Source: Thalassospira australica (GTDB lineage: Bacteria; Pseudomonadota; Alphaproteobacteria; Rhodospirillales; Thalassospiraceae). From it: a DNA stretch of 64,000 nucleotides. The notes below the pieces were generated by a model, which saw only the letters and a list, made by a program, of their open reading frames with translations, did not search any database and had not been told where the DNA came from. This document shows positions 42,562 to 63,474 of this stretch, piece after piece. The translations under genes and the position numbers were made by a program. Location of the stretch: positions 2,559,689 to 2,623,688 of the forward strand of contig NZ_CP085258.1 of assembly GCF_044790785.1 (NCBI RefSeq). Direction: 5' to 3'. Each line of letters begins with the position of its first letter. Position 1 is the stretch's first letter.

Positions 42562-42563
42562 TC

Positions 42564-44982: not shown

Positions 44983-45040
44983 GTTTCTTTCCGTCCCCAA
45001 TTGCCGACTGCTTTACCTGTCGCAATATTATCGCGCAATT

Positions 45041-45583: not shown

Positions 45584-45706
45584 ATACCCGGCAAGTTTTG
45601 GTTGTGCGGTTGGCGGTAAGTTCATTAAACCTGATATACCTTGCCCGGTTCGGGCAGATGATCCTTGTCGATTACAGAAATAATATCAACAAAAGGCAGG
45701 TTGGAT

Positions 45707-46110: not shown

Positions 46111-46860
46111 TTGGATATGAGTTTGCTGCACGCCAGAATTTCGCACTGGGCGTTTTGGGAAGACCGCGACGAACACGCGGTTCTGAAATCCGGCGCATCC
46201 GGGCACATCGCCGTCCCGATTGACGGTATGAACAATGCCAATCTGGCGCGCAGCCTCAAACCTGCCTGGCGGCGGCGTCTTGACCTCTATGGCCGCGCCG
46301 CTGCCGAGGTGCTGGGCCATACCATCCGTGATGGCGACAACCCGCATATCGTTTTTGCCTCGCGCCACGGCAATATTGATCGAACCCTGAAACTCCTCCA
46401 TCAGGTCGCGACCAACGAAACCCTCTCCCCCGCCGATTTCAGCATGTCGGTGCATAACGCGCTGGTCGGGGTTGCCTCGATCAACTGGTCGATCACCCAA
46501 AGCCACACCGCCATTTCGGCTGGAAATGACAGCCTGATCGCCGCCCTCACCGAAACATTATGCCAACTCACAAGCGAGGATGGCCCGGTCATCCTGTGCT
46601 ATGTTGATCTGCCGCTGCCCGATATTTACGACGATAACGACCCCGACGACATTTCCGGCACCGCCCTTGCCATCCGGTTTGATCAACCGACTGAGCCGGA
46701 AGGCGAAATGTTCCGGTTCGATCCGATCGCCGATCATGATCCCGCCGTCCAGCCCCACCGACAGGCCCGCGCCATCGCCGCCTGCCTTGGCACACCGTCA
46801 AAAACCGGGTTGAACCTGCCGGGGAAATCCGGCGGCTGGGCAATGCAACCGCATGGCTGA
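46111..46860 (+). CDS. APE-type KS chain-length-factor-like protein (KS N-terminal-like, no catalytic Cys)
   Basis: About 250 aa, first gene of the coupled operon. Resembles the small KS/CLF-like partner protein of aryl-polyene clusters. TTG at 46111 or ATG at 46117. Confidence 0.5.
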   Translation: MDMSLLHARISHWAFWEDRDEHAVLKSGASGHIAVPIDGMNNANLARSLKPAWRRRLDLYGRAAAEVLGHTIRDGDNPHIVFASRHGNIDRTLKLLHQVATNETLSPADFSMSVHNALVGVASINWSITQSHTAISAGNDSLIAALTETLCQLTSEDGPVILCYVDLPLPDIYDDNDPDDISGTALAIRFDQPTEPEGEMFRFDPIADHDPAVQPHRQARAIAACLGTPSKTGLNLPGKSGGWAMQPHG

Positions 46861-47680
46861 TAAACACGGTATCCCGGCACGGCTATCAAGGGGCGTTAAC
46901 TGGTACTGGCGGTTGCTGGCGACCGGCTTTGCCTTTTTATTCTTCGGGTTGGGCGGGCTTTTGATGGCCATCACCATTTTCCCCGCCATGATGATCATCC
47001 TGCGCGACCGCGCCAAACGCCGCCAATATGCCCAGTTTGTCATCTGTCGCGGTTTTCGCGTCTTTGTCTGGATGCTTGATGTCACCGGGGTTGCCGTCGC
47101 CCAGACCGAAAATATCGAACGCCTGCGTTCCGCACGCGGCGCACTGATCATCGCCAATCACCCGACATTACTTGATGTCGTGATGATTTTGGCGCAGATG
47201 GATCGCTGCCAGTGTGTGGTCAAACATCAACTGTTTCGCAATCCGTTCATGGCCGGTGTGGTGCGCGCGGCCGGTTTCATTCGCAACAATGATGACCCGA
47301 AAAACCTGATATCGCAGGCGCGCGATCATCTTTCGGCCGGTGCGTGTATCCTGATTTTCCCCGAAGGTACGCGCACCCCCAGCCGCCGCAAACTGGGCCA
47401 ATTGCAACGCGGGGTAGCGAATATCGCGATAGAAACACAAGTCGACTTGATTCCTGTGGTTGTGCACTGTAATCACGATACCCTGAAAAAGGGGGTACCG
47501 TGGTATCGCATTCCGCCGTCGAAAATCCGTTTTCGCCTCGTGGTCGATGCACCGCTATCATTTGGGGACATTGCTGATCCGACACTAAGCCGCGCCAGAC
47601 AGGCGCGTTTGCTGACCCGGATCATCAAGGATTATTATCTGGATAGACTGACGCATGACTTCGCTGGAAACAGAACTTAA
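46853..47680 (+). CDS. lysophospholipid/glycerol-3-phosphate acyltransferase (PlsC/LPLAT family)
   Basis: H(X)4D motif NHPTLLD, FPEGTR, N-terminal TM. Confidence 0.75.
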   Translation: MADKHGIPARLSRGVNWYWRLLATGFAFLFFGLGGLLMAITIFPAMMIILRDRAKRRQYAQFVICRGFRVFVWMLDVTGVAVAQTENIERLRSARGALIIANHPTLLDVVMILAQMDRCQCVVKHQLFRNPFMAGVVRAAGFIRNNDDPKNLISQARDHLSAGACILIFPEGTRTPSRRKLGQLQRGVANIAIETQVDLIPVVVHCNHDTLKKGVPWYRIPPSKIRFRLVVDAPLSFGDIADPTLSRARQARLLTRIIKDYYLDRLTHDFAGNRT

Positions 47681-47918
47681 AGCCTTCATTATCGAGACAC
47701 TTAATCTCGAAGACATAAGTGTCGAGGATATCGACAGCGAAGAAGCCCTGTTTGTCGACGGGCTGGGCCTTGATTCCATTGATGCCCTTGAACTTGGCGT
47801 TGCAATCCAGAAAAAATATGATGTCCGGATCGATGCCAAAAACGAAGATGTCAAAACCCATTTTGCATCGGTGCGCAATCTGGCGACATTCATTCAGGCT
47901 TCGGGAAAGGAGGGGTAA
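47655..47918 (+). CDS. acyl carrier protein 1
   Basis: 87 aa, DGLGLDSIDALEL (DSL-type phosphopantetheine site). Confidence 0.7.
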   Translation: MTSLETELKAFIIETLNLEDISVEDIDSEEALFVDGLGLDSIDALELGVAIQKKYDVRIDAKNEDVKTHFASVRNLATFIQASGKEG

Positions 47919-47920
47919 TC

Positions 47921-48169
47921 ATGCACAGTCGCCAGGACGTTTATCAGCAGCTTCACGATTACCTTGTCGAACTTTTCGAAGTCCCGGCCGAAGATATCAC
48001 CCCTGATGCCCGCCTGTTCGAAGACCTTGACCTCGACAGCATCGATGCCGTCGACCTGATCGTCAAATTCCAGGAAATCACCGGCAAGAAAATCCCGGCC
48101 ATGGAATTCCGGTCTGTCCGCACCGTCGATGACGTCGTCGAGAAGATCCATGACCTGGTCAGCTCCTAA
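47921..48169 (+). CDS. acyl carrier protein 2
   Basis: 82 aa, EDLDLDSIDAVDL. AAGGAGGGG SD 3 nt after the ACP1 stop. Confidence 0.7.
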   Translation: MHSRQDVYQQLHDYLVELFEVPAEDITPDARLFEDLDLDSIDAVDLIVKFQEITGKKIPAMEFRSVRTVDDVVEKIHDLVSS

Positions 48170-48749
48170 ACGGTTCGCGACCATCCTGCTTGCCGTACTG
48201 GGTGTCACCTATCCGGTTCTGGTTTATTTCGGCCTGTCCGTCTTTTCCCCGCAGATCATCCTGATCGGCCTTCTGATCATCGTGCTTTTGCGCGCCGTGA
48301 CATTTGTTTTCGCAAAACGTTATGCCGCCGCCGGTCTTGCGGTTCTGGTCGCAGGCATCGTTACCATCGGCGGCGTTGCAAGCGAACTTCTCGCCATCCG
48401 TTTCTATCCGGTAATCGTCAGCCTGACGATGGGATCGGTCTTTACCGTCACGCTCTTTACCGACAAACCGATGGTCGAACGCCTTGCCCGGATGAGGATG
48501 CCCGATCTTGACGATTACTCGATTGCCTATACCCGCAAACTGACCAAAATCTGGATCGGGTTCTTTGTCACCAATGCGCTGATTGCGGGCTGGACGGCGC
48601 TTTATGCCAATATGGAAATCTGGACGCTGTATAACGGCCTTATTTCCTACATCCTGATGGGCCTATTGTTCATTGGCGAATGGCCGGTCCGGCGCATGCT
48701 CCGTGCCCGCCATGACCGCAAAACCGCAAACGGCACGGAATCCCCATGA
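48150..48749 (+). CDS. integral membrane protein (APE-cluster conserved), hypothetical
   Basis: About 5 predicted TMs. Start ambiguous (ATG 48129 or 48150), overlapping the ACP2 3' end. Confidence 0.5.
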   Translation: MTWSAPKRFATILLAVLGVTYPVLVYFGLSVFSPQIILIGLLIIVLLRAVTFVFAKRYAAAGLAVLVAGIVTIGGVASELLAIRFYPVIVSLTMGSVFTVTLFTDKPMVERLARMRMPDLDDYSIAYTRKLTKIWIGFFVTNALIAGWTALYANMEIWTLYNGLISYILMGLLFIGEWPVRRMLRARHDRKTANGTESP

Positions 48750-50434
48750 CCGGCTTTATCGAAAACCTGCATGATCCGCAAAACGCCGCCACCGCCCTTT
48801 GCATCGAAGGCGACCGGGTATTTCGCGTTGGCGATCTGCGTGCCGATATCGACCGCCTTTGCCCCACCCTGTCCGCATCTTCGCGCATCGCCATTCATTG
48901 CCAGTCGGCCCGTCTGTTCCTGATGGCGATCACCGCGGCATGGCGTGCGGGTGCGACCGTAATTTTCCCGGCAACCGACCGTCCGGCCTACCTTGATGGC
49001 ATTGTCGATCAGTTCGATCTTTATCTGGATGATGCCGCGATCCTCGAAAGACTTGCCACCGCAACCGCCGCAAACACCTGCTGCAACATGACGCTGCCCG
49101 CCGCATCCGATTGCCGCGCGGTGTTCTTTACCTCCGGCTCGACCGGGGATGCCAAACCGATCCCTAAAACACTGGCCCTGATCGAAGCCGAGATCGCCAT
49201 ACAGGAACCGCTTTGGCAACCGCACATCCCGCCGGGCGCGCGCATTGTCGGGCTGGTATCCCATCAGCATATCTATGGCCTGATTTTCCGCATCGTCTGG
49301 CCGGTGATGACAGGCCGTGTCTTTACTGCCGATCCCGCCCCCTATTGGGAAATGATGCAGGGCGATATCAATACCGGCGATGTCCTGATCACAAGCCCCG
49401 CGCACCTCAAAAACCTGCATCCCGATCTGGCCGGTGTGCCGCGCCCATCCCTGATCTTTTCATCGGGTGGCCCGCTTGACCTTGCCGCCGCGACCGAAAC
49501 CACTGCCATGCTCGGCACCTGCCCGACCGAAATTTACGGCAGCACCGAAACCGGCGGCATCGCCCATCGCCAGCAGACCGGCGACAACTGCCCGTGGCAT
49601 CCGCTGCCCGGTGTCGACATTGGTCTGAATGATGCCGGATGCCTGCGCGTGCGCGCCGCCCATATCGCGGGCGATGACTGGTATCAGACCGAAGACATCG
49701 CAAAGATCGATAACACAACCGGCACCTTCACCCTGCATGGCCGGGCCGACCGGGTGGTCAAGGTCGAAGGCAAACGCATTTCGCTGGGCGCGGTTGAACG
49801 CCATCTGCGCCAAAGCCATCTGGTCGAAGACGCCGTTGCCCTGATCCCCGATGATAATGACCGCCGCCTTGGCGTGGTGGCCGTGCTGTCGCCTGCCGGC
49901 CGCGATATGCTCGCCGATATCGGGCGGTTTCGCATGGGCCGCCAACTCCGGCGTGAAATCGCCAAATTCGAAGACGACGCAGCCTTGCCGCAACGCTGGC
50001 GCTTTGTCGATCAGCTACCATCCGACAGTCAGGGCAAACGTCCGCTTCATTTGCTGCGTGCCCTTTTTGCCGATATGGAACCTCTAACGCCTGAAATCGT
50101 TATACAAAATCGCGATGATGACCGCGTCAATCTGGCGCTGCGCCTGCCCACGGATCTGCTTTATTTCCGTGGCCATTTCCCCGGCATGCCGATCCTGCCC
50201 GGTGTCGTGCAACTGCACTGGGCCGTGGATCAGGCCGCAACGCTTTTTGATGTCCCGGTCACCATCGGCGAAGTGACACAACTGAAATACCGAAAGCCGA
50301 TCAAACCCGGCTCGACCGTGATGCTGGAACTTGATTGCGACCGCGACAGTGCGAAAATCAAATTCCGCTATCATTCCGACGCCGAAGGCGATCACAGCTC
50401 CGGTATTCTGAAATGGCGCGAGGCTGCCTCATGA
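48746..50434 (+). CDS. acyl-ACP/aryl ligase-like adenylating enzyme fused to C-terminal hotdog thioester dehydratase
   Basis: AMP-binding FFTSGSTGDAKPI, YGSTETGGIA. C-terminal FabA/FabZ-like YFRGHFPGMPILPGV. ATGA coupling. Confidence 0.75.
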   Translation: MTGFIENLHDPQNAATALCIEGDRVFRVGDLRADIDRLCPTLSASSRIAIHCQSARLFLMAITAAWRAGATVIFPATDRPAYLDGIVDQFDLYLDDAAILERLATATAANTCCNMTLPAASDCRAVFFTSGSTGDAKPIPKTLALIEAEIAIQEPLWQPHIPPGARIVGLVSHQHIYGLIFRIVWPVMTGRVFTADPAPYWEMMQGDINTGDVLITSPAHLKNLHPDLAGVPRPSLIFSSGGPLDLAAATETTAMLGTCPTEIYGSTETGGIAHRQQTGDNCPWHPLPGVDIGLNDAGCLRVRAAHIAGDDWYQTEDIAKIDNTTGTFTLHGRADRVVKVEGKRISLGAVERHLRQSHLVEDAVALIPDDNDRRLGVVAVLSPAGRDMLADIGRFRMGRQLRREIAKFEDDAALPQRWRFVDQLPSDSQGKRPLHLLRALFADMEPLTPEIVIQNRDDDRVNLALRLPTDLLYFRGHFPGMPILPGVVQLHWAVDQAATLFDVPVTIGEVTQLKYRKPIKPGSTVMLELDCDRDSAKIKFRYHSDAEGDHSSGILKWREAAS

Positions 50435-52119
50435 AAATCTGTGCCGTCATCCCGACCCATAACCATCATGACGTCCTGGCTGACGTCGTGTCGCGCATCC
50501 GCGAATATGATCTGCCGGTGATCATCATTGATGACGGCTCGAACGCGCAAACGCATGATGTTGTGGCCGCCCTGCATGATCCCGAAAATGGCGTCACATG
50601 TCAGCACCTGCCCGAAAATGGCGGCAAGGGGGTTGCGGTAATGGCCGGTCTTGCCCTGGCCGAACGCGCCGGTTTCACCCACGCCATTCAGGTCGATGCC
50701 GACGGGCAGCATAATCTTGACCGCATTGCCGAAATGATCCGCATCGCCCGCGAAGATCCCGCCGCCCTCATCACCGGGCTGCCGGTCTATGATGACAGCA
50801 TCCCGCAAAAACGCCGCATCGGGCGCTGGGTATCCCATGTATGGGTCTGGATCGAAACATTATCCACCCACATCCGCGACAGCATGTGCGGCTTTCGCGT
50901 GTACCCGGTTTCCGAAAGCCTCGCCGTCTGGCGCGAAGAAGGCTGCGGCCATAAAATGGATTTCGATACCGAACTGATGGTGCGCCTGTATTGGCGCGGT
51001 GTCCCCGTCCGCCATGTCCCGACCGAAGTCACATATCCCGAAAACAACACCTCAAACTTCCGCATGTGGAAGGACAATGTCCTGATCACATGGATGCATA
51101 CCCGCCTGTTTTTCGGTATGCTGGCCCGCCTGCCCGGCTTCATCGCGCGCGGCGGTCGTTTCGGTCCGAAAACCGGTACGGACCGCAATCAAAGCCACTG
51201 GGCGGAAATTGACGAACGCGGCATGTATTGGGGCATCCGGTTCCTTGGCATGGTTTATCGCTATGGCGGGCGCAGGCTTTGCATGGTGGTGATGTTTCCG
51301 ATCATCGCCTATTTCTTTGCCACAGGGCGGATTGCGCGCCGCGCATCGCAGGATTTCCTGACCCGGATTGCCGCCATCACCAATCAACCCAAACCGGGCC
51401 TGCGTGACAGTTTCCGCCATTTCATGAATTTCGGCGAAAGCGCGCTGGATAAAATTGCCGCATGGTCGGGCGAAATGAAGATCGACGATCTGGACCTGCC
51501 CGATCACGCCGACAGCCTGTTTGCCTATATCCCGCGCGATCAGGCAGTCATCCTGTTCGTATCCCATTTCGGCAATATCGAACTGGTGCGTGCGATTGCC
51601 AGCCGCGACCGCGATTTTCGCGTCAATGTGCTGCTGCATCAAAAAAACGCCGCCCGTTTTGGCCGGGTCTTGCAAAAATTCGCCCCCGAAAGTCAGGTCG
51701 ATCTGATCGAAGTCACCGATATCGGCCCCGATACCGCGATGCTGCTGCGTGAAAAGGTCGAACGCGGCGAATGGATCGTGATTGCCGCCGACCGCGTTGC
51801 CATCGGTGCCCGCGATAAATCGGTACGTGTCCCGTTTCTGGGTGATCCGGCCCCCTTCCCGCAGGGGCCGTTTGTTCTGGCCCATCTGCTGCAATGCCCG
51901 GTCTATATGGTTGCGGCATGGCGCAATGGGAAACGCTTTGAAATCGCGTGGGAAAAACTGGCCGATAAAATAACCCTGCCGCGCGCCAATCGTACCGGCA
52001 AAATCACCGAATATGCCGAACAATATGCGGGCTGGCTTGAAAAGCTTGTTGTTACAAAACCGCTGCAATGGTTCAATTTCTATGACTTCTGGGCGAATAA
52101 AAAGGACGACAATGAATAA
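50431..52119 (+). CDS. family-2 glycosyltransferase fused to lipid-A-type (LpxL/HtrB-like) acyltransferase
   Basis: N-terminal GT2 (ICAVIPTHNHHDVL...IIIDDGSND-like, DADGQH). C-terminal LPLAT-like domain (FVSHFGNIELVRAI). ORF track start 50335 trimmed to the coupled ATG at 50431. Confidence 0.7.
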   Translation: MKICAVIPTHNHHDVLADVVSRIREYDLPVIIIDDGSNAQTHDVVAALHDPENGVTCQHLPENGGKGVAVMAGLALAERAGFTHAIQVDADGQHNLDRIAEMIRIAREDPAALITGLPVYDDSIPQKRRIGRWVSHVWVWIETLSTHIRDSMCGFRVYPVSESLAVWREEGCGHKMDFDTELMVRLYWRGVPVRHVPTEVTYPENNTSNFRMWKDNVLITWMHTRLFFGMLARLPGFIARGGRFGPKTGTDRNQSHWAEIDERGMYWGIRFLGMVYRYGGRRLCMVVMFPIIAYFFATGRIARRASQDFLTRIAAITNQPKPGLRDSFRHFMNFGESALDKIAAWSGEMKIDDLDLPDHADSLFAYIPRDQAVILFVSHFGNIELVRAIASRDRDFRVNVLLHQKNAARFGRVLQKFAPESQVDLIEVTDIGPDTAMLLREKVERGEWIVIAADRVAIGARDKSVRVPFLGDPAPFPQGPFVLAHLLQCPVYMVAAWRNGKRFEIAWEKLADKITLPRANRTGKITEYAEQYAGWLEKLVVTKPLQWFNFYDFWANKKDDNE

Positions 52120-53674: not shown

Positions 53675-54078
53675 TCAGTGCATCCGTCACCGAAACGGTG
53701 CAATTCTATCACCTTGATCCGATGAATGTCGTCTGGCACGGCAATTACGTGCAGTTCTTTGAAAATGCCCGCTGCGCGCTTCTGGATCGGATCGACTACA
53801 ATTATCCGCAAATGGATGCGTCGGGCTATGTCTGGCCGGTGGTGGATATGCGGGTCAAATATGTCCGCCCCTGCACCTTCGGGCAAAACATCACGATCAC
53901 CGCGACGCTCCGCGAATATGAAAACCGGCTTAAAATCGACTATCTGGTCAGCGACAGCAAAACCGGTGAAAAACTGACCAAGGGCTTCACCATTCAGGTC
54001 GCGGTCGAAAAATCCAGCGGCGAAATGCTCTATCGCAGCCCCGATTTCTTCATCGAAAAGATGGAGGCCCTTGTTTGA
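53671..54078 (+). CDS. 4HBT-type hotdog acyl-CoA/ACP thioesterase
   Basis: YHLDPMNVVWHGNY and other 4-hydroxybenzoyl-CoA-thioesterase-like features. About 135 aa. ATGA coupling. Confidence 0.6.
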   Translation: MISASVTETVQFYHLDPMNVVWHGNYVQFFENARCALLDRIDYNYPQMDASGYVWPVVDMRVKYVRPCTFGQNITITATLREYENRLKIDYLVSDSKTGEKLTKGFTIQVAVEKSSGEMLYRSPDFFIEKMEALV

Positions 54079-54710
54079 TCCCGATCCGCCGCCTGATCGC
54101 CCCCCTCGCAACCGCCGCCCTGCTGGCCGCAGGCATGACCGGCACCGCACGGGCGGATAATATTCCGGCCCCCTCCACCATCAATCAGGATCAATATCTC
54201 GGCGGTTCCTTCACCATGGACCGCCATCTTGACGGCTTTGAAAAACCGCTCACCTCGAACGGTGATTTCGTTCTGTCCCCGACAAAGGGTCTGGTCTGGC
54301 GCACGTTGCAACCCTTCCCCGGCACCACAATCCTTGATGATCACGGCATCACCCGGATCGATGATCAGGGCAACCGCGATGAGTTGGCCCGCGGTGATCA
54401 GTTCCGCCAGTTTGTCGAACTGATTTCGGCCGTTCTTGCCGGGAACTGGCAACCGCTTGAACAGCGTTTTGACATCGCCAAAGGCACGACCGAAAGTGAC
54501 GCATGGCAAGTCAGCCTGACGCCCAAAGACGGCAGCACCATCCAAAGCCAGATCACCAAAATCACCGCCACCGGCACAGATTTTGTCGAAAGCGTTCGAC
54601 TGGAAAAACCGACCGGCGATCATGATGCCATCACCCTTTCCGATCAGGCATTGCAAACCCTGCCCCTGCCGCCCGAATTTGCCGCTCTTCTGACCGGCGC
54701 GGCTCAGTAA
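54075..54710 (+). CDS. LolA-like outer-membrane lipoprotein carrier protein
   Basis: Signal peptide (LIAPLATAALLAAGMTGTARA). About 190 aa periplasmic beta-barrel-type protein at the LolA-like position of APE clusters. TTGA coupling. Confidence 0.5.
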   Translation: MIPIRRLIAPLATAALLAAGMTGTARADNIPAPSTINQDQYLGGSFTMDRHLDGFEKPLTSNGDFVLSPTKGLVWRTLQPFPGTTILDDHGITRIDDQGNRDELARGDQFRQFVELISAVLAGNWQPLEQRFDIAKGTTESDAWQVSLTPKDGSTIQSQITKITATGTDFVESVRLEKPTGDHDAITLSDQALQTLPLPPEFAALLTGAAQ

Positions 54711-57031: not shown

Positions 57032-58269
57032 TGAGACCCGATTGCGATATCGCCATCATCGGTGCCGGGCCTGCCGGATCGGTCATTGCCAAATTCCTGC
57101 ATGATGCCGGCATGGCTGTTACCGTGCTCGAAGCCGAAACTTTCCCGCGCTTCGTGATCGGCGAAAGCCTGCTGCCCAATTGCATGAATGTGCTTGAACG
57201 TGCCGGGCTTCTGGATGCGGTCGCCGATGCCGGGTTCCAGTTCAAAAACGGTGCCGTCTTCGAATGCGGCCCCCAATATATGTCGATTGATTTCCGCGAA
57301 AATTTCGAACCGTCCGATTGCTGGGGCACCACGTTTCAGGTGAAGCGGGCCCGCTTTGACCAGATTCTGGCAACCGAAACCGCCCGCGCCGGGGTCGATA
57401 TCCGCTTTGGCCATCGCGTCACATCGGCACATCTTTCCGATGGCGATTGCCGCCTTGGCTTCACCGATGAAAACGGCAATCCCGGCGAACTCCGCGCCGG
57501 GTTCGTGGTCGATGCCAGCGGCTATGGCCGCGTCCTTCCCCGGATGCTCGGCCTTGCCCGCCCCGGTAAGTCGATTGAACGCCGCGCACTTTTTACCCAC
57601 ATGCGCGATCACATCATCGATCCCGGCTATGACCGCGAAAAAATCCTGATCACGGTGCATCCGACCCGTCATGAAATCTGGTACTGGCTGATCCCGTTTT
57701 CCGATGGCACCGCATCCATCGGCGCGATCTATCCCGATAATGATCCGGCCTTTGCCGGCATGTCTGATCAGGACATTTTCAATCAGTTGATCAACGACAC
57801 ACGTCTCGGAAGCCTGCTTTCCAATGCCGAACCGATCCGCGACCTTAATTCCATCGCCGGATATAGCGCACAATCGGAAAAACTTTTTGGCGATGGTTAT
57901 GTGCTGCTTGGCAATTCGGCGGGCTTCCTTGATCCGGTCTTTTCATCGGGTGTCACCATCGCCATGCATTCCGCCGAACTGGCCGCCAAGGCCTTGATCG
58001 CGCGTCATAATGGCAAGTCTGTTGACTGGAACCTGGATTTCGCCGCCCCGCTGTCAAAGGGGGTCGATACGTTCCGATCCTATGTCGATGCATGGTATGA
58101 TGGACGGTTACAGACGATTATTTTCAATCAGCCCGATGACGATTCACAACTGAAACGTATGGTCGTATCGATCCTTGCAGGTTATGCATGGAATATGGAA
58201 AACCCGCTGGTCGCCAAAACCGAACGCTATCTTGAGATGTTGCACGATCTATGCGCTCCGTCGTCGTAA
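57031..58269 (+). CDS. flavin-dependent halogenase (tryptophan-halogenase-like)
   Basis: GxGxxG (IAIIGAGPAGS). Halogenase signature WxWxIP (EIWYWLIPF). GTG start overlapping the upstream stop (TAGTG). Confidence 0.65.
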   Translation: MRPDCDIAIIGAGPAGSVIAKFLHDAGMAVTVLEAETFPRFVIGESLLPNCMNVLERAGLLDAVADAGFQFKNGAVFECGPQYMSIDFRENFEPSDCWGTTFQVKRARFDQILATETARAGVDIRFGHRVTSAHLSDGDCRLGFTDENGNPGELRAGFVVDASGYGRVLPRMLGLARPGKSIERRALFTHMRDHIIDPGYDREKILITVHPTRHEIWYWLIPFSDGTASIGAIYPDNDPAFAGMSDQDIFNQLINDTRLGSLLSNAEPIRDLNSIAGYSAQSEKLFGDGYVLLGNSAGFLDPVFSSGVTIAMHSAELAAKALIARHNGKSVDWNLDFAAPLSKGVDTFRSYVDAWYDGRLQTIIFNQPDDDSQLKRMVVSILAGYAWNMENPLVAKTERYLEMLHDLCAPSS

Positions 58270-58916
58270 AAACCCTTGTCGCTGGCATGCTTGCCACAGG
58301 TCTGAGCGCCTGTGAAACAATGAACATGCCCGATCTGTCGATGCCCGACTTTTCCCTGCCCGATGTCTTTACATCGGCCCCGGCACAGACCGTGATGCTT
58401 GACGAGGGCTATGAATTCACCCTGCCCGAACAGCCATGGACCAATGATGACGCCATCGACGTCACCCAGCAGGTCACGGCAAACTGGCAAACCGCCAACA
58501 GCAGCGAAACCGGAACCGGCACCTTTCAGGCCCGCCTGTCCCTTGAACGCGATCACGCCCGCATCGTCATGATCGATGATCTGGGCCGTCGCGCGATTGA
58601 TATCGACTGGACGCCCGATGCCCTGTCGGTCCAAACCGCAGACTGGCTGCCCGCAACGCTTGATGCCAAACGCATGCTGGCCGATATCGTCATGGTCTAT
58701 TGGCCGCTCGATATCGTGCGCGATGCCCTGCCGGGCAATATGTCGATCCGCGAAACCATGGGCGAAAGGATGCTTCGCATGGATAACAGTGGCCGCGCCT
58801 ATGCCCGGATTGAACGCCCGATCCGCGATGTCTGGCAGGGTGTGGCGAAGCTTCGCAATGAACGGTTCGGCTATGCCATCACGATCCAATCGAAACGGAC
58901 GGAACCGTCATCATGA
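58251..58916 (+). CDS. lipoprotein (DUF3261-like position), hypothetical
   Basis: Lipobox LSAC. ATG 58251 overlaps the halogenase 3' end by 19 nt. Confidence 0.5.
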   Translation: MRSVVVKTLVAGMLATGLSACETMNMPDLSMPDFSLPDVFTSAPAQTVMLDEGYEFTLPEQPWTNDDAIDVTQQVTANWQTANSSETGTGTFQARLSLERDHARIVMIDDLGRRAIDIDWTPDALSVQTADWLPATLDAKRMLADIVMVYWPLDIVRDALPGNMSIRETMGERMLRMDNSGRAYARIERPIRDVWQGVAKLRNERFGYAITIQSKRTEPSS

Positions 58917-60142
58917 CGCCGGGTTCGCTCTATCTTTCCGCCCTTGGCATCGTATCGGCCCTTGGCAGCGGGATCGATGAAAGCCGCGCGACCCTGTTTG
59001 GCAATCGCCCGGCAGACATGATCGCGCGAGATGGCTTCCTGCCCGATCGCACCACGATCCTTGGCACTGTCGCGCATGATCCCGAACCACTGCCAGATCC
59101 CCTTGCCCGCCACGATACCCGCAACAACCGCCTGCTTTGGGCCGCAACCCGGCAGATCGAAACCGATATCACCAATCTGATCGCCGATATCGGCCGCGAC
59201 CGGATCGGTGTCATCATGGGCACCAGCACATCGGGCATCGAAGAAGGCACAAGCGATTACGAAGCCGCCCTTGATGGCGGGGCCTTTCCCGAAACGTTTG
59301 TGTATAGCCATCAGGAAATCGGATCACCCGCCGATTTCCTGCGCGATGCCTTTGATCTTGGCGGACCGTCTTACGCAATTTCGACGGCATGTTCATCAAG
59401 TGCCAAGGCCTTCGCCGCCGGGGCGCGCCTGATCAATGCCGGGCTGTGCGATGCGGTTCTGGTTGGCGGCGCCGATAGCCTCTGCCGCCTGACCGTGCGC
59501 GGTTTTGATGCCCTGCAATCGGTTTCAAACGGCATCTGCAACCCCATGAGCATCAATCGCGACGGCATCAATATCGGCGAAGGGGCCGCGATCTTCATCC
59601 TGCGCCGCGATGCGCATCCGGGTGCGGGCGCGATTGAACTTTTGGGGGTCGGTGAAAGCTCCGACGCCCATCATCCCAACGCCCCGCATCCCGATGGCCG
59701 GGGGGCCGCCATGGCAATGCAAAACGCGCTGGCAAACGCCAGCCTCACCCCCGCCGACATCGCCTATATCAATCTGCACGGCACCGCGACCCCGCTTAAT
59801 GACGGCATGGAGGCACGTGCGGTCTGCGATGTTCTCGGCGCCAACGTCCCGGCAAGCTCCACCAAACCGATGACCGGTCATACGCTGGGTGCTGCGGGCG
59901 CCATCGAAGCCGCGATGCTGTGGCTATCGCTTTGCGATGCCGCCAATGGTGCGCCCCTGCCGCGTCATATCTGGGACGGTGCATCTGATCCCGAAATTCC
60001 CGATATCAATCTGGTGACCAAGCCGGGCACCAGATTGCCACCCGCGGATCGGTTGGCAATGATGAGCAACTCGTTTGCCTTTGGCGGCAGCAACGTCTCG
60101 GTCATTCTTGGCCGGGGCTGGAACCGGGGGGACCGCGCATGA
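58913..60142 (+). CDS. beta-ketoacyl-ACP synthase (FabB/F-like)
   Basis: Active-site Cys AISTACSSSAKAF; His NLHGTATPLND and GHTLGAAGA. Confidence 0.85.
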   Translation: MTPGSLYLSALGIVSALGSGIDESRATLFGNRPADMIARDGFLPDRTTILGTVAHDPEPLPDPLARHDTRNNRLLWAATRQIETDITNLIADIGRDRIGVIMGTSTSGIEEGTSDYEAALDGGAFPETFVYSHQEIGSPADFLRDAFDLGGPSYAISTACSSSAKAFAAGARLINAGLCDAVLVGGADSLCRLTVRGFDALQSVSNGICNPMSINRDGINIGEGAAIFILRRDAHPGAGAIELLGVGESSDAHHPNAPHPDGRGAAMAMQNALANASLTPADIAYINLHGTATPLNDGMEARAVCDVLGANVPASSTKPMTGHTLGAAGAIEAAMLWLSLCDAANGAPLPRHIWDGASDPEIPDINLVTKPGTRLPPADRLAMMSNSFAFGGSNVSVILGRGWNRGDRA

Positions 60143-60627
60143 ATGCGTCTGTAAAACCCGCCTTCCCACCCGTCGAAACACTGGTGCCCCATGCCGCACC
60201 CATGCTTCTGATCGACCGCGTTCTGAATGCCGACGCCGAAAGCCTGACGGCAGAGGTCCACATCACCAAGGACAGCCTGTTCTTCACCCCCACGCACGGC
60301 GTCCCCGCCTATGTCGGGATCGAATATATCGCACAGTCGGTCGCCGCCTATAGCGGCTGGCGCGCCCAATCGGCGGCCCCCGGCACAGCACCCAAAATCG
60401 GTTATCTGCTCGGCACGCGCAAAATGACCATGGCGTGCGATGGCTTTGCCGATGGCGATGTGCTTGTCGTCCATGTGAAAAACATTTTCGAAGACGGCGA
60501 AATGGGTGTGTTTGACGGCGAGGTTCGCAAAGGTGACGAAACCCTTGTGACCGCCCGCATCAATGTCTATCAGCCAGACGACACCGCAGAAACCCCAACC
60601 AGCAACCAAGAAACGACAAAGCCATGA
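60139..60627 (+). CDS. hotdog 3-hydroxyacyl-ACP dehydratase (APE-type)
   Basis: 162 aa, PMLLIDRV motif typical of FabA/Z-like/thioester dehydrases. ATGA coupling. Confidence 0.6.
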   Translation: MNASVKPAFPPVETLVPHAAPMLLIDRVLNADAESLTAEVHITKDSLFFTPTHGVPAYVGIEYIAQSVAAYSGWRAQSAAPGTAPKIGYLLGTRKMTMACDGFADGDVLVVHVKNIFEDGEMGVFDGEVRKGDETLVTARINVYQPDDTAETPTSNQETTKP

Positions 60628-61349
60628 CAGAAACCATTCTGGTAACAGGTGCCAGCAAGGGGATCGGTGCCGCCACCGCGCGCCGTCTTGCAAGGGACGG
60701 TTTTGATATCATCGTCCATTATCATTCCGATCAAACCGGTGCCGAAGCCGTCCGTGATGACATCATTGCCCTTGGCCGCAATGCCCGCCTGATCCGGTTC
60801 GATATCGCTGACCGCGACGCGACGCGCACCGCAATCGAGGCCGACATTGCCGATCATGGCGCGCCCTATGGTGTGATCCTCAATGCCGGGCTGACCCGCG
60901 ATGGACCGTTTCCCGCCCTTGAAGACGACGATTGGGATCGGGTTCTGCACACCAATCTGGATGGCTTTTACAATGTGATCAAACCGCTGATCATGCCGAT
61001 CATTCAACGGCGCAAGGGCGGGCGGATCGTTGCGCTCACCTCCATCGCCGGGATCGCTGGCAATCGCGGGCAGGTCAATTATGCGGCATCAAAGGCCGGG
61101 ATCATCGGGGCGGTCAAATCACTCGCCCTTGAACTCGCCAAACGCAAAATCACCGTCAATGCCGTCGCCCCCGGCGTGATCGAAACCCAGATGACCGGCG
61201 ACCTGCCCGCGGACGAGGTCAAGGCGATGATCCCGATGCGCCGTTACGGCACAACGGATGAAGTCGCGGGCACCATCGCATTTCTGTGCAGCCCCGATGC
61301 GTCCTACATCACGCGCCAGGTCATCAGTGTGAATGGGGGCATGCTATGA
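60624..61349 (+). CDS. fabG: 3-oxoacyl-ACP reductase (SDR)
   Basis: TGASKGIGAATARRLA, catalytic YAASKAG, NAVAPGVIET. Confidence 0.85.
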   Translation: MTETILVTGASKGIGAATARRLARDGFDIIVHYHSDQTGAEAVRDDIIALGRNARLIRFDIADRDATRTAIEADIADHGAPYGVILNAGLTRDGPFPALEDDDWDRVLHTNLDGFYNVIKPLIMPIIQRRKGGRIVALTSIAGIAGNRGQVNYAASKAGIIGAVKSLALELAKRKITVNAVAPGVIETQMTGDLPADEVKAMIPMRRYGTTDEVAGTIAFLCSPDASYITRQVISVNGGML

Positions 61350-62590
61350 GCAACACCACCTCCACCCGCCGCGTGGTCGTCACCGGCATGGCGGGCATCA
61401 CCGCCCTTGGTGATAATTGGGAAACCATTTCATCGCGCATGGCGGCGGGTGAAACCGGCATCCGGCGCATGGATGACTGGGATGGCAAATATGATCTGCG
61501 CACCCGCCTTGCCGCCCCGGTGCAGGATTTCACGCTCAAGGGCAAATTCAGCCGCAAACAGCTCCGCAGCATGGGCCGTGTTGCCCAGATGTCGGTCGAT
61601 GCCACCGACAAGGCATTGGAAATGGCGGGTCTGCGTGACGATACCGCGATCCTGCAGGGTGGGCGTCTTGGCATTGCCTATGGCTCATCCTTCGGAAGCA
61701 CCCCGCCCGTTCTCGGTTTCACCCGCCTGATGGAACATGGCGACAGCAACGCCATCACCGCCACCAGCTACATCCAGATGATGAGCCACACCGCTGCCGT
61801 CAATATCGGCGTGCTCTATGGCATTTCCGGGCGCATCATCCCGACCTCGACCGCCTGCACATCGGGCAGCATGGGGATCGGATATGCGTATGAGGCAATC
61901 AAATTCGGCATGCAGGATCTGATGATCGCCGGCGGGGCGGAGGAACTCTGCCCCACCATGGTCGCCGTATTCGATACCCTGTTTGCCACCAGTACCAGTA
62001 ACGACGCCCCGGAACTCTCCCCGCGTCCCTATGATGCAAGGCGCGATGGTCTGGTAATCGGCGAAGGGGCCGGAACGCTTATTCTGGAAGAATATGAACA
62101 CGCCAAGGCCCGCGGGGCCAAGATTTACGGCGAAATCGTCGGCTTCGCCAGCAATTCCGACGGCGCGCACATCACCCAACCCGCAGCGGACAAAATGGAA
62201 GTCGCCCTTCGCCAGTCGCTTGAAAGTGCCGGGCTGTCGCCATCCGATATCGATATCGTCAACGGCCACGGCACCGCCACCGATCATGGCGACCTTGCCG
62301 AAAGCAGGGCGACCCGTGCCGTCTTTGACCGCGCCATTCCGATCCACACGCTCAAGGGCCATTTCGGCCATAGCCTCGGCGCATGTGGTGCCATCGAGGC
62401 ATGGCTTGGCCTTGAAATGATGCGCGAAGGCAAATTTGTCGCCACCGCCAATCTTGAACAGGTCGATCCCGATTGCGCCGAACTTGATTACATCTTTGGC
62501 GACGCCAGAAACCTTTCGGCCGAACATATGATGAGCAACAATTTCGCCTTTGGCGGTATCAACACGTCCCTGATCTTCCGGCAAATCTAG
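61346..62590 (+). CDS. beta-ketoacyl-ACP synthase II-like (second KS of operon)
   Basis: Cys TSTACTSGSMG; His NGHGTATDHGD and GHSLGACGA. ATG 61346 overlaps the fabG stop. Confidence 0.85.
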   Translation: MSNTTSTRRVVVTGMAGITALGDNWETISSRMAAGETGIRRMDDWDGKYDLRTRLAAPVQDFTLKGKFSRKQLRSMGRVAQMSVDATDKALEMAGLRDDTAILQGGRLGIAYGSSFGSTPPVLGFTRLMEHGDSNAITATSYIQMMSHTAAVNIGVLYGISGRIIPTSTACTSGSMGIGYAYEAIKFGMQDLMIAGGAEELCPTMVAVFDTLFATSTSNDAPELSPRPYDARRDGLVIGEGAGTLILEEYEHAKARGAKIYGEIVGFASNSDGAHITQPAADKMEVALRQSLESAGLSPSDIDIVNGHGTATDHGDLAESRATRAVFDRAIPIHTLKGHFGHSLGACGAIEAWLGLEMMREGKFVATANLEQVDPDCAELDYIFGDARNLSAEHMMSNNFAFGGINTSLIFRQI

Positions 62591-62606: not shown

Positions 62607-62639
62607 AAAAACCCCGGCATCTGCCGGGGTTTTGCGTTT
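62607..62639. terminator. bidirectional rho-independent terminator between the convergent KS and RidA genes
   Basis: AAAA, then stem CCCCGGCA (62612-19), loop TC, TGCCGGGG (62622-29), then TTTTGCGTTT. Confidence 0.55.
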
Positions 62640-63473: not shown

Positions 63474-63474
63474 C

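What the first reader, a model, noticed from the sequence alone, without database searches (positions are those of the whole stretch)
46111..62590. 18-gene aryl-polyene (APE)-type operon with TAL/HAL-like MIO lyase and a WxWxIP halogenase: predicted halogenated aryl-polyene lipid (xanthomonadin/flexirubin-like)
The gene order is KS/CLF-like, LPLAT, ACP, ACP, membrane protein, adenylating ligase(+DH), GT2(+LpxL-like acyltransferase), thioesterase, LolA-like, MMPL exporter, lipoprotein, KS, DH, KR, KS. This matches the canonical APE cluster family, the most widespread BGC family in Gram-negatives. Two extra genes are inserted. One is a MIO ammonia-lyase (Ala-Ser-Gly triad) that could make the 4-coumarate-type aryl starter from Tyr, as in flexirubin pathways. 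The other is a flavin-dependent halogenase (GxGxxG + WxWxIP), recalling brominated xanthomonadins. An APE cluster combining both, in this lineage and beside a lipopeptide cluster, looks uncommon.
Basis: partly seen in the sequence, partly recalled or inferred. Interest (0 to 1): 0.65.

Follow-up and report, generated by a model that had tools for sequence, protein, structure and literature searches.

The report
Aryl-polyene lipid operon, common subtype
This is an intact 18-gene operon for a membrane-bound aryl-polyene pigment lipid in a marine Thalassospira bacterium; its extra ammonia-lyase and halogenase genes are not unusual, because they sit at the same places in the same operon in hundreds of other proteobacterial species.

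Summary
The genes are real and intact. Seventeen tightly overlapping + strand genes fill 46111-62590, and an ApeA-like lipoprotein gene (45707-46108) just upstream makes 18. Every E. coli CFT073 ape gene except the methyltransferase apeB has a homologue here in the same order (24-59% identity). A MIO ammonia-lyase is inserted between apeJ and apeK, and a flavin-dependent halogenase between apeM and apeN. The stated motifs are present: ASG in the lyase; GxGxxG, catalytic Lys, WxWxIP and FSSG in the halogenase.

Two parts of the interpretation fail. First, the combination is not uncommon. A species-level genome scan found at least 592 genomes encoding this lyase clade. In 65 of the 72 sampled loci that reach the core PKS genes, the halogenase is present too, usually at the same position (Pseudomonas, Vibrio vulnificus, Shewanella, Janthinobacterium, Caulobacter, four Thalassospira species). 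Second, the lyase lacks the His-Leu TAL switch. It has Phe-His, and all 80 relatives have [F/Y]-His, so tyrosine use is inferred, not shown.

The architecture is the E. coli/Vibrio APE-lipid type, not the flexirubin or xanthomonadin type. Only one of the four other Thalassospira species sampled has the NRPS-linked genes beside the ape operon. Verdict: an ordinary new member of a known, widespread cluster family. The product of this lyase+halogenase subtype was not described in any paper I could search.

The parts
45707..46108 (+). apeA-like lipoprotein gene.
   Evidence: tblastn with E. coli ApeA gives 35% identity over 126 of 129 aa, E 1e-23. The N-terminus MRSLKFAVVGLLALVVAAC carries a lipobox. 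The gene ends 2 nt before the next gene.
46111..46860 (+). apeC-like chain-length factor (a ketosynthase without active-site residues)
   Evidence: Pfam Ketoacyl-synt_2, E 3.5e-40. 31% identical to ApeC. No Cys or His KS motifs are present.
46853..47680 (+). apeD-like lysophospholipid acyltransferase
   Evidence: Pfam Acyltransferase, E 3e-21. 39% identical to ApeD.
47655..47918 (+). apeE-like acyl carrier protein
   Evidence: Pfam PP-binding. 52% identical to ApeE. The DSI serine motif is present.
47921..48169 (+). apeF-like acyl carrier protein
   Evidence: Pfam PP-binding. 56% identical to ApeF. The DSI motif is present.
48129..48749 (+). apeG-like integral membrane protein
   Evidence: 47% identical to ApeG over 104 aa, E 3e-32. 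About 5 hydrophobic segments. No Pfam family passes its cutoff.
48746..50434 (+). apeH-apeI fusion: an adenylating aryl-acid:ACP ligase plus a FabZ-like dehydratase
   Evidence: Pfam AMP-binding + ApeI-like. 32% identical to ApeH and 33% to ApeI. The same fusion occurs in 42 of 69 related loci.
50431..52119 (+). apeJ-like bifunctional glycosyltransferase (GT2) / LpxL-type acyltransferase
   Evidence: Pfam Glycos_transf_2 + Lip_A_acyltrans. 45% identical to ApeJ over 557 aa, E 5e-178. The ATG at 50431 overlaps the preceding stop.
52112..53674 (+). MIO-dependent aromatic amino acid ammonia-lyase with a Phe-His switch (absent from the E. coli cluster)
   Evidence: Pfam Lyase_aromatic, E 1.6e-152. 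It has GASGD, Tyr60, the LSRFHGCG switch and ECHNQD. Homologues are 520 aa, and the ATG at 52112 has an RBS.
53671..54078 (+). apeK-like hotdog thioesterase
   Evidence: Pfam 4HBT_2/4HBT. 50% identical to ApeK.
54075..54710 (+). apeL-like periplasmic LolA-type carrier
   Evidence: Pfam LolA_3. NCBIfam flexirubin LolA2, E 3e-11, below cutoff. 25% identical to ApeL. A signal-peptide-like N-terminus is present.
54710..57031 (+). apeM-like RND/MMPL-type exporter
   Evidence: 26% identical to ApeM over 637 aa, E 5e-35; 773 aa against 772 aa. Weak HAE3/MMPL hits. 12 hydrophobic segments.
57031..58269 (+). Flavin-dependent halogenase, short 'variant B' type (absent from the E. coli cluster)
   Evidence: Pfam Trp_halogenase, E 1.8e-23. 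It has GAGPAG, Lys72, WYWLIP and FSSG, and these are conserved in 64-65 of 65 homologues. PDB best hit is 3nix, E 1e-99, followed by ChlB4, CndH, CmlS and PltA.
58251..58916 (+). apeN-like DUF3261 (LolB-like) lipoprotein
   Evidence: Pfam DUF3261, E 4e-25. 24% identical to ApeN. Lipobox GLSAC.
58913..60142 (+). apeO-like elongating ketosynthase
   Evidence: NCBIfam PRK09185, 503 bits against a cutoff of 407. 45% identical to ApeO. The Cys/His/His motifs TACSS, HGTAT and KPMTGH are present.
60139..60627 (+). apeP-like dehydratase
   Evidence: Pfam ApeP-like, E 1.3e-20. 29% identical to ApeP.
60624..61349 (+). apeQ-like ketoreductase (FabG2)
   Evidence: NCBIfam TIGR01831 FabG2, 370 bits against a cutoff of 339. 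59% identical to ApeQ.
61346..62590 (+). apeR-like ketosynthase
   Evidence: NCBIfam PRK09116, 659 bits against a cutoff of 470. 59% identical to ApeR. The ATG at 61346 overlaps the apeQ stop.

Best explanation
The locus is a complete 18-gene operon of the E. coli/Vibrio-type aryl-polyene (APE) lipid family, in a Thalassospira species. It belongs to the widespread subtype that carries a MIO ammonia-lyase and a flavin-dependent halogenase in place of, or in some other genera alongside, the ApeB methyltransferase.

Shown here:
- Gene content, order, intactness and catalytic motifs.
- One-to-one colinearity with the characterised E. coli ape genes.
- Conservation of the whole arrangement, including both extra genes, across Alpha-, Beta- and Gammaproteobacteria.

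Inferred mechanism, by homology with the Xenorhabdus and E. coli pathways:
1. The lyase deaminates an aromatic amino acid, most likely tyrosine (my estimate about 0.6), to the aryl-acrylate 4-coumarate.
2. The ApeH-like domain adenylates the aryl acid and loads it on the ApeE-like ACP.
3. The halogenase chlorinates or brominates the ACP-tethered phenol ortho to the hydroxyl (my estimate about 0.5-0.6). Its nearest characterised relatives all act on carrier-bound substrates.
4. ApeR (initiation), ApeO/ApeC (KS-CLF), ApeQ (KR) and ApeI/ApeP (DH) build the polyene.
5. ApeD and ApeJ attach it to a glycerophospholipid-aminosugar anchor, with ApeK as an editing thioesterase.
6. ApeG, ApeL, ApeM, ApeN and ApeA move the lipid to the outer membrane, where APE lipids protect against reactive oxygen.
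For: Homology to the E. coli cluster:
- All of ApeA and ApeC-R have colinear homologues, at 24-59% identity with E down to 5e-178.
- APE-specific families pass their cutoffs: ApeI-like, ApeP-like, FabG2, PRK09116 and PRK09185.
- The KS triads are present in the ApeO and ApeR homologues and absent in the ApeC homologue. Both ACPs have the serine motif.
- Lipoboxes, a signal peptide and transmembrane segments fit the export proteins.
- Gene junctions mostly overlap by 1-8 nt or leave a 2-nt gap; three overlap by 19-41 nt.

Lyase:
- ASG, Tyr60 and Gln (not the HAL Glu) are invariant in the clade.

Halogenase:
- GxGxxG, Lys, WxWxIP and FSSG are conserved in 64-65 of 65 homologues.
- The best solved relatives are 3nix (E 1e-99), then ChlB4, CndH, CmlS and PltA.

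Conservation of the arrangement:
- The order C D E F G H J-lyase-K L M-halogenase-(N) O P Q R dominates among the 80 loci.
- Independent gene calls in V. vulnificus show the same content.

Gene roles come from bioRxiv 10.1101/2020.12.19.423268 and PMC8253772. Tyrosine-derived, sometimes chlorinated aryl polyenes are established chemistry in flexirubins (PMC3992019).
Against: - There is no chemical or expression data for this organism.
- The lyase switch is Phe-His, not the His-Leu of characterised TALs. By the Watts rule, Phe at position 1 points to phenylalanine.
- No NCBIfam lyase model reaches its cutoff.
- The characterised ApeH of Xenorhabdus loads 4-hydroxybenzoate, and the adenylation domain gives no discriminating signal. 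E. coli ApeH also best-hits the 4-coumarate ligase model.
- No flavin reductase gene is in the window.
- From memory only: the V. fischeri APE, whose cluster probably has the same lyase and halogenase-like genes, was reported as a dimethylated, non-halogenated head group. I could not check the V. fischeri gene content here.
Confidence: 0.8

Rival explanations
1. The operon makes an APE lipid, but the starter is not tyrosine-derived. Either the lyase converts phenylalanine to cinnamate, giving an unhydroxylated phenyl head. Or the pathway still starts from 4-hydroxybenzoate, as in E. coli and Xenorhabdus, and the lyase has another role, such as a broad-specificity lyase or a 2,3-aminomutase.
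For: - The switch residue at position 1 is Phe, or Tyr in 22 of 80 relatives, as in PALs and not the His of TALs (rule as quoted in PMC3992019).
- The pocket residue that aligns with PcPAL Ile460 is also Ile (read from the alignments).
- The lyase scores similarly against TAL, HAL, PAL and aminomutase models, and none reaches its cutoff.
Against: - A flavin-dependent halogenase needs an electron-rich ring, and its near-constant co-occurrence (65/72) fits a phenol.
- His at switch position 2 is invariant, and it aligns with His93 of the tyrosine-specific SgTAM.
- All characterised APE, flexirubin and xanthomonadin head groups are hydroxyphenyl.
- The lyase's fixed place inside the operon argues for a pathway role.
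Confidence: 0.25
2. The halogenase-like flavoprotein does not halogenate the product in vivo. It is silent, or it acts as another kind of flavoenzyme, and the APE lipid is non-halogenated.
For: - There is no biochemical data for this clade. Its closest solved relative, 3nix, is only annotated 'flavoprotein/dehydrogenase'.
- No flavin reductase gene is nearby.
- Vibrio-type clusters carry the gene together with a methyltransferase, and the V. fischeri product is remembered as dimethylated, not halogenated. That recollection is from memory and is unverified.
Against: - The catalytic Lys and the WxWxIP motif, which distinguishes halogenases from monooxygenases, are conserved in 64-65 of 65 homologues across three classes.
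- The Pfam Trp_halogenase score is above its cutoff.
- Halogenated aryl polyenes are known: xanthomonadins with a cluster halogenase (PMC3691225) and chlorinated flexirubins (PMC3992019).
Confidence: 0.3
3. The cluster is a member of the flexirubin family (a dialkylresorcinol ester) or of the xanthomonadin family, rather than of the E. coli/Vibrio APE-lipid type.
For: - It combines a lyase with a halogenase, as flexirubin chemistry does.
- The LolA and KR proteins give sub-threshold hits to the flexirubin models LolA2 and FlxB.
- The halogenase is about half identical to 3nix, which I remember as coming from the flexirubin producer Cytophaga hutchinsonii.
Against: - The FlxA model scores 304 bits against a cutoff of 700, and FlxB scores 267 against 340.
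- The only DarB signal is 23 bits, in a KS.
- The gene order is one-to-one with E. coli apeA and apeC-R, including the lipid-anchor genes apeD and apeJ.
Confidence: 0.05
4. These are housekeeping fatty-acid synthesis genes, not a specialised-metabolite operon.
For: The KS, KR, DH and ACP proteins resemble FabF, FabG, FabZ and AcpP.
Against: - They match the APE-specific models better than the FAS equivalogs. fabF (TIGR03150) scores 354 bits against a cutoff of 494, whereas PRK09116 scores 659 against 470.
- The operon also encodes a CLF, an adenylating enzyme, GT/AT, Lol-like and RND export proteins, a lyase and a halogenase.
Confidence: 0.01

Closest known systems
E. coli CFT073 APE_Ec operon (apeA-R) and the Xenorhabdus doucetiae APE-lipid (APEL) operon
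   Same: There is a one-to-one, colinear homologue for ApeA and ApeC-R at 24-59% identity. It has the same type II PKS logic (KS-CLF, second KS, KR, two DH, two ACPs), the same lipid-anchor enzymes (ApeD, ApeJ) and the same Lol/RND-like export set.
   Different: There is no ApeB methyltransferase. A MIO lyase is inserted between apeJ and apeK, and a halogenase between apeM and apeN. ApeH and ApeI are fused. The predicted starter comes from an aromatic amino acid rather than from UbiC-derived 4-hydroxybenzoate.
Lyase-bearing APE clusters of Vibrionaceae (V. vulnificus L082; probably also the MIBiG reference APE_Vf of V. fischeri, which is unverified), Pseudomonas, Shewanella and Oxalobacteraceae
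   Same: The lyase clade is the same (59-68% identity outside Thalassospira, with an invariant [F/Y]-His switch), and so is the halogenase clade (43-53% identity outside Thalassospira). The lyase position is identical, and in most genera the halogenase position is too.
   Different: Vibrionaceae place the halogenase with an ApeB methyltransferase and apeA on a divergent arm and keep ApeH and ApeI separate. Some Oxalobacteraceae have the methyltransferase instead of the halogenase.
Flexirubin biosynthesis (FlxA tyrosine ammonia-lyase; chlorinated flexirubins) in Bacteroidota
   Same: It is an aryl polyene built from a lyase-derived aryl-acrylate, with optional ring chlorination (PMC3992019). 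The halogenase is about half identical to PDB 3nix, E 1e-99.
   Different: The lyase is not a FlxA equivalog (304 bits against a cutoff of 700), and its switch is Phe-His rather than His at position 1. No dialkylresorcinol genes were seen. The anchor is the ApeD/ApeJ lipid type.
Xanthomonadin clusters (brominated aryl polyenes)
   Same: It is an APE-type type II PKS with a cluster-encoded halogenase (PMC3691225).
   Different: Xanthomonadin starters are hydroxybenzoates made from chorismate (from memory), not lyase products. Gene order and anchor genes differ. Stenotrophomonas and Pseudoxanthomonas genomes also carry the present lyase type (L032, L024).
Carrier-protein-dependent flavin halogenases (CndH 3e1t, PltA 5dbj, ChlB4 7fco, CmlS 3i3l)
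   Same: They share the GxGxxG, Lys, WxWxIP and FSSG motifs and a short C-terminus. E-values are 1e-36 to 1e-42.
   Different: Identity is much lower than to 3nix. The substrate here would be an aryl-acyl-S-ACP of a type II PKS. No activity has been shown for this clade.
Characterised MIO enzymes: RsTAL (His-Leu), cyanobacterial and plant PAL (Phe-Leu), HAL (Ser-His), SgTAM (Ser-His)
   Same: They share the fold, the ASG triad, the catalytic Tyr, and the Arg and Asn/Gln carboxylate-binding motifs.
   Different: The switch is a hybrid Phe-His (Tyr-His in 22 of 80 relatives). E-values to all solved members are similar, about 1e-65 to 1e-69, so it is a separate clade with no solved structure. From memory and unverified: P. 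fluorescens R124 'XAL' (Csuka 2018; I saw only the citation) may be a characterised member.

Membership tests
APE biosynthetic gene cluster family (core set as defined in bioRxiv 10.1101/2020.12.19.423268: apeO/R, apeE/F, apeC, apeI/P, apeQ, apeM) | Two ketosynthases (ApeO, ApeR) with catalytic residues | tested here: met
   45% and 59% identity to ApeO and ApeR. PRK09185 and PRK09116 score above their cutoffs. Cys/His motifs are present.
APE biosynthetic gene cluster family | Chain-length factor (ApeC) lacking the KS active site | tested here: met
   Pfam Ketoacyl-synt_2. 31% identity to ApeC. No Cys or His motifs.
APE biosynthetic gene cluster family | Two dedicated ACPs (ApeE, ApeF) | tested here: met
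   Pfam PP-binding twice. 52% and 56% identity. DSI serine motifs present.
APE biosynthetic gene cluster family | Two dehydratases (ApeI, ApeP) and the ketoreductase ApeQ | tested here: met
   Pfam ApeI-like and ApeP-like. FabG2 TIGR01831 scores 370 bits against a cutoff of 339.
APE biosynthetic gene cluster family | RND-type transporter ApeM with LolA-like and DUF3261 partners | tested here: met
   ApeM homologue, E 5e-35, 773 aa against 772 aa. LolA_3 and DUF3261. Lipobox, signal peptide and transmembrane segments.
APE biosynthetic gene cluster family | The product is an aryl-polyene pigment lipid | not testable with these tools
   This needs pigment extraction and MS/NMR. None of the held papers that my ten searches returned describes a Thalassospira APE.
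Tyrosine ammonia-lyase (TAL) | MIO-forming Ala-Ser-Gly triad and catalytic Tyr | tested here: met
   GASGD and Tyr60 are invariant in the clade.
Tyrosine ammonia-lyase (TAL) | His at selectivity-switch position 1 (His89-Leu90 of RsTAL) | tested here: not met
   The window has Phe89-His90, aligned against the verified RsTAL sequence. All 80 relatives have [F/Y]-His.
Tyrosine ammonia-lyase (TAL) | Reaches the curated score of a TAL equivalog model (FlxA, BagA) | tested here: not met
   FlxA scores 304 bits against 700. BagA/FevW scores 390 against 1000.
Histidine ammonia-lyase (HAL) | Ser-His switch and Glu in the NQED motif; reaches the hutH cutoff | tested here: not met
   The switch is Phe-His. 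The motif is ECHNQD, with Gln where HAL has Glu. hutH scores 357 bits against 539.
Flavin-dependent halogenase | GxGxxG FAD-binding motif | tested here: met
   GAGPAG, present in 65 of 65 homologues.
Flavin-dependent halogenase | WxWxIP motif | tested here: met
   WYWLIP, present in 64 of 65 homologues.
Flavin-dependent halogenase | Catalytic lysine (K79 of PrnA, K76 of CndH) | tested here: met
   Lys72 in FQFKNG aligns with the FPIKRG Lys of CndH 3e1t. Present in 65 of 65 homologues.
Flavin-dependent halogenase | Halogenating activity and halide preference | not testable with these tools
   This needs an enzyme assay. The closest solved relative, 3nix, has no assigned function.
Flexirubin cluster | FlxA-type TAL and FlxB-type reductase equivalogs | tested here: not met
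   FlxA scores 304 bits against 700, and FlxB scores 267 against 340.
Flexirubin cluster | Dialkylresorcinol genes darA/darB | tested here: inconclusive
   The only signal is a 23-bit DarB hit inside a KS. No other candidate appears among the ORFs I annotated, but I did not search the rest of the genome.

The most novel reading that the evidence does not exclude
The [F/Y]-His MIO lyase plus the 3nix-type halogenase define a very widespread APE subfamily that I could not find chemically characterised. It occurs in Pseudomonas, Vibrio vulnificus, Shewanella, Oxalobacteraceae, Caulobacter and Thalassospira. Under this reading, the subfamily starts from tyrosine-derived 4-coumarate instead of 4-hydroxybenzoate and makes chlorinated or brominated aryl-polyene outer-membrane lipids. 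The lyase would then be a new specificity class in which His at switch position 2 reads the phenol, as in tyrosine aminomutase.
Probability: 0.35. Interest if true: 0.45.

Novelty: new member of a known kind. Interest (0 to 1): 0.22.

Why it matters
For this window it matters little. It adds one more Thalassospira genome to a cluster family that genome-mining tools already flag routinely. The broader point is modest but real. In the sampled genomes that carry the lyase, most APE operons also carry a conserved halogenase. Yet none of the held papers that my ten searches returned reports the product, the lyase's substrate or the halogenase's activity for this subtype. If such lipids are halogenated, halogenated outer-membrane pigments would be far more common in Proteobacteria, including pathogens such as V. 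vulnificus, than the xanthomonadin and flexirubin examples suggest.

Tried and rejected
None of the papers these searches returned, among those I opened or scanned by title and abstract, describes a Thalassospira APE, the product of a lyase+halogenase proteobacterial APE cluster, or the halogenase clade. Cimermancic 2014, Jendresen 2015, Csuka 2018 and Brack 2023 are not held.
- V. fischeri: I tried to check whether the reference V. fischeri APE_Vf cluster contains the lyase and halogenase. I searched with Vibrio and Photobacterium lyases. The top 120 hits were saturated by V. vulnificus, V. anguillarum and Photobacterium, so no Aliivibrio entry was reached and the question stays open.
- Adenylation domain: I tested whether its best NCBIfam hit (4-coumarate-CoA ligase, TIGR02372) indicates a coumarate starter. 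I rejected this, because E. coli ApeH, the homologue of the Xenorhabdus ApeH shown to load 4-hydroxybenzoate, gives the same best hit.
- Promoter and terminator scans at both operon ends gave nothing above shuffled expectation.
- An exact-sequence look-up of the lyase found no record, so the source genome is not in that collection.
- Composition shows no island-like anomaly. GC is 0.555-0.60, like the rest of the window.
- I considered and rejected primary FAS, flexirubin-type and xanthomonadin-type membership (see the rival explanations).

Full report
**Source and observation.** The window comes from a Thalassospira species. The lyase is 92% identical to that of T. alkalitolerans, and its next hits are other Thalassospira. 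The exact protein is not on record. Between 46111 and 62590 there are 17 intact + strand ORFs, with these Pfam assignments:
- Ketoacyl-synt_2
- Acyltransferase
- two PP-binding ACPs
- a membrane protein
- AMP-binding fused to an ApeI-like dehydratase
- GT2 fused to a lipid-A-type acyltransferase
- Lyase_aromatic (E 1.6e-152)
- 4HBT thioesterase
- LolA_3
- a weakly scoring RND/MMPL-like protein
- Trp_halogenase
- DUF3261
- KS
- ApeP-like dehydratase
- SDR ketoreductase
- KS

The lyase has GASGD. The halogenase has GAGPAG, a Lys in FQFKNG, WYWLIP and DPVFSSG.

**Corrections to the anatomy.** The stated interval holds 17 genes. The 18th is an ApeA-like gene at 45707-46108, immediately upstream. 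tblastn with E. coli ApeA gives 35% identity over 126 of 129 residues, and the N-terminus carries a lipobox. Comparison with homologues and inspection of start codons move four starts: apeJ to 50431, the lyase to 52112, apeK to 53671 and apeR to 61346. Junctions mostly overlap by 1-8 nt or leave a 2-nt gap, and three overlap by 19-41 nt at the ORF-start coordinates, as expected for one translationally coupled operon. Promoter and terminator scans at the ends were uninformative. Base composition is unremarkable.

**What it is.** I fetched the characterised E. coli CFT073 ape cluster and compared protein by protein. Every E. coli gene except the methyltransferase apeB has a homologue in the window, in the same order:

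| E. coli gene | Identity to window homologue |
|---|---|
| ApeR | 59% |
| ApeQ | 59% |
| ApeF | 56% |
| ApeE | 52% |
| ApeK | 50% |
| ApeG | 47% |
| ApeO | 45% |
| ApeJ | 45% (E 5e-178) |
| ApeD | 39% |
| ApeA | 35% |
| ApeI | 33% |
| ApeH | 32% |
| ApeC | 31% |
| ApeP | 29% |
| ApeM | 26% |
| ApeL | 25% |
| ApeN | 24% |

- The curated models that NCBI uses for these APE-linked enzymes are passed: PRK09116 at 659 bits against 470, PRK09185 at 503 against 407, and FabG2 TIGR01831 at 370 against 339. The housekeeping fabF model is not passed, at 354 against 494.
- The ApeO and ApeR homologues keep the Cys/His/His residues. The ApeC homologue lacks them, as a chain-length factor should. Both ACPs have the serine motif.
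- ApeN and ApeA have lipoboxes, ApeL has a signal peptide, and ApeM has about 12 hydrophobic segments.

This is therefore a member of the E. coli/Vibrio-type APE-lipid family, not primary FAS. Relative to E. coli there are two insertions, the MIO lyase between apeJ and apeK and the halogenase between apeM and apeN. There is one loss, apeB.

**How common the combination is.** Of these, 592 were confirmed as relatives. I compared the 17 window proteins against the 80 best loci, each with 10 kb flanks.
- 72 loci reach the core PKS genes, and 65 of those also encode the halogenase homologue.
- The dominant order is C D E F G H J-lyase-K L M-halogenase-(N) O P Q R.
- It occurs in Thalassospira (four species), Ruegeria, Tepidicaulis, Caulobacter, Pseudomonas (many species), Shewanella, Pseudoalteromonas, Stenotrophomonas, Janthinobacterium, Massilia and others.
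- Vibrionaceae carry the halogenase with an ApeB-type methyltransferase and apeA on a divergent arm. Independent gene calls with precomputed Pfam hits show this 20-gene version in V. vulnificus, where the lyase sequence is indexed in 657 blocks of the assembly collection.
- Some Oxalobacteraceae have the methyltransferase instead of the halogenase, and a few have both.
- The ApeH-ApeI fusion seen in the window is also common, at 42 of 69 loci.

The neighbouring NRPS context is also not conserved. Only T. alkalitolerans shares the ABC exporter and type II thioesterase next to the ape operon.

**The lyase.**
- ASG, the catalytic Tyr and the ECHNQD motif are invariant in all 80 relatives. In ECHNQD, Gln sits where HAL has Glu (criterion as quoted in PMC3992019).
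- The selectivity switch is not that of a TAL. I aligned against RsTAL, whose sequence I verified against PDB 2o6y, and against the cyanobacterial PALs and SgTAM. The window has Phe89-His90 where RsTAL has His89-Leu90, PAL has Phe-Leu, and SgTAM has Ser-His.
- All 80 relatives have [F/Y]-His: 58 Phe-His and 22 Tyr-His.
- No NCBIfam MIO model reaches its cutoff. BagA TAL scores 390 bits, HAL 378, PAL 309 and FlxA 304 against 700. The solved structures are all about equally distant, at E about 1e-65 to 1e-69.

The enzyme is thus a separate clade of aromatic amino acid lyase. I favour tyrosine as the substrate, at about 0.6, for three reasons:
- The invariant His at position 2 aligns with the His that, from my recollection of the SgTAM structures, binds the phenol.
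- The co-occurring halogenase needs an activated ring.
- All known APE-type head groups are hydroxyphenyl.

Phenylalanine or broad specificity cannot be excluded. A characterised 'XAL' from P. fluorescens R124 may belong to this clade. I recall it from Csuka et al. 2018, but I saw only the citation and could not verify the link. The adenylation domain does not help, because E. coli ApeH, like the window's adenylation domain, best-hits the 4-coumarate ligase model.

**The halogenase.**
- The FAD motif, the catalytic Lys, WxWxIP and the FSSG motif are conserved in 64-65 of 65 homologues across three proteobacterial classes. This argues for a functional halogenase rather than a monooxygenase.
- The best solved relative by far is 3nix (E 1e-99, roughly half of the aligned residues identical, full length). 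It is a structural-genomics 'flavoprotein/dehydrogenase' that I remember as coming from the flexirubin producer Cytophaga hutchinsonii.
- Next come ChlB4, CndH, CmlS, a 450-residue FADH2-dependent halogenase (5buk) and PltA. These are short halogenases that act on carrier-protein-tethered substrates, so I infer halogenation of the aryl-acyl-S-ACP.
- Halide preference cannot be predicted. No flavin reductase gene is nearby.

**Mechanism.** Steps 1 and 2 below are inference. The later steps rest on homology to characterised proteins.
1. The lyase makes the aryl-acrylate, and the ApeH domain loads it on the ApeE-like ACP.
2. The halogenase tailors the ring, taking the place of ApeB methylation.
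3. ApeR initiates. ApeO/ApeC elongate, with ApeQ and ApeI/ApeP (PMC8253772).
4. ApeD and ApeJ attach the polyene to a glycerophospholipid-GalNAc anchor of the kind solved in Xenorhabdus. ApeG, ApeL, ApeM and ApeN export it to the outer membrane (bioRxiv 10.1101/2020.12.19.423268).
5. Consistent with that anchor, the GT domain's best (weak) NCBIfam hit is a polyprenyl-phospho-GalNAc synthase.

**Comparison with the known.**
- Closest in architecture are the E. coli/Xenorhabdus ape operon and, more exactly, the lyase-bearing version found in Vibrio, Pseudomonas and others.
- The chemistry predicted, a lyase-derived starter plus ring halogenation, is that of flexirubins. Flexirubins are tyrosine-derived and sometimes chlorinated (PMC3992019).
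- The presence of a cluster halogenase recalls xanthomonadins (PMC3691225). The cluster nevertheless fails the flexirubin equivalog tests and has the E. coli-type anchor genes.
- None of the held papers that my ten searches returned describes the product of this subtype or a Thalassospira APE.
- I could not confirm whether the reference V. fischeri cluster has both genes. If it does, its reportedly non-halogenated product would weaken the halogenation prediction. That report is from my memory.

**Verdict.** This is a correct reading of the genes and a largely correct family assignment, but the claim to rarity is wrong and the TAL call is over-confident. It is an ordinary new member of a known, very widespread cluster family. 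Interest is low for this locus. There is a moderate, non-locus-specific open question about the chemistry of the lyase+halogenase subtype.

Noticed in passing
window 4306-29767 (+), with 29780-30592 (-), 40912-44237 (+), 44242-45000 (-): This is a three-gene hybrid NRPS-PKS assembly line. Pfam finds C, A, T, KS and AT domains in gene 1. Gene 2 has C, A, T, KS and KR domains plus further C/A/T domains. Gene 3 has an A domain with an embedded methyltransferase, then T and TE. Nearby are an Sfp-type PPTase, two ABC exporters and a type II thioesterase. It may be a thalassospiramide-like lipopeptide line, but that name comes from memory and was not tested. Only the ABC exporter, type II thioesterase and the 194-aa ORF were compared: all three recur beside the ape operon in T. 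alkalitolerans, and only the ORF recurs in the other three Thalassospira loci.
   Followed up: partly
window 45041-45625 (-): This 194-aa ORF is divergent from the apeA-like gene. It is conserved at that position in all four Thalassospira loci, at 66, 36, 40 and 39% identity. It shows only weak phosphopantetheinyl-transferase signals: Pfam ACPS at E 0.09 and NCBIfam HetI at E 8e-5, 22 bits. There is no PDB relative. E. coli ape ACPs depend on the orphan PPTase AcpT (PMC8253772), so this could be a dedicated PPTase. That is untested.
   Followed up: partly
loci L011, L020, L026, L068 (methyltransferase only); L013, L019, L034, L037, L050, L061, L076, L014, L030, L035, L082 (both): In lyase-bearing APE operons the head-group tailoring genes behave as interchangeable cassettes. 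Most loci, including the window, have the halogenase only. Some have an ApeB-type methyltransferase only, and some have both. The insertion sites differ between lineages.
   Followed up: partly
window 52112-53674 and the lyase matches in L001-L080: The lyase clade has an invariant [F/Y]-His at the Watts selectivity switch and an invariant ECHNQD motif. This combination matches none of the canonical TAL, PAL or HAL signatures. No solved structure is closer than E about 1e-69.
   Followed up: partly
L005, L009, L044, L066: A few lyase relatives sit in different contexts. L005 has a rearranged compact cluster (halogenase, O, R, P, Q, lyase), and L044 has a reduced set. In L009 and L066 the lyase has few or no ape genes within the fetched flanks.
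   Followed up: no
window 62639-63049 (-) and 63036-63542 (+): Immediately downstream of the operon lie a RidA/L-PSP family gene and a 168-aa ORF with no Pfam or NCBIfam hit. Both are conserved next to the operon in T. alkalitolerans, at 93% and 63% identity. Any relation to the operon is unknown.
   Followed up: no
window 30642-33613 (-): Two DUF697 genes flank an SPFH/Band-7 gene between the NRPS-PKS line and the transporter genes. They are unrelated to the finding.
   Followed up: no
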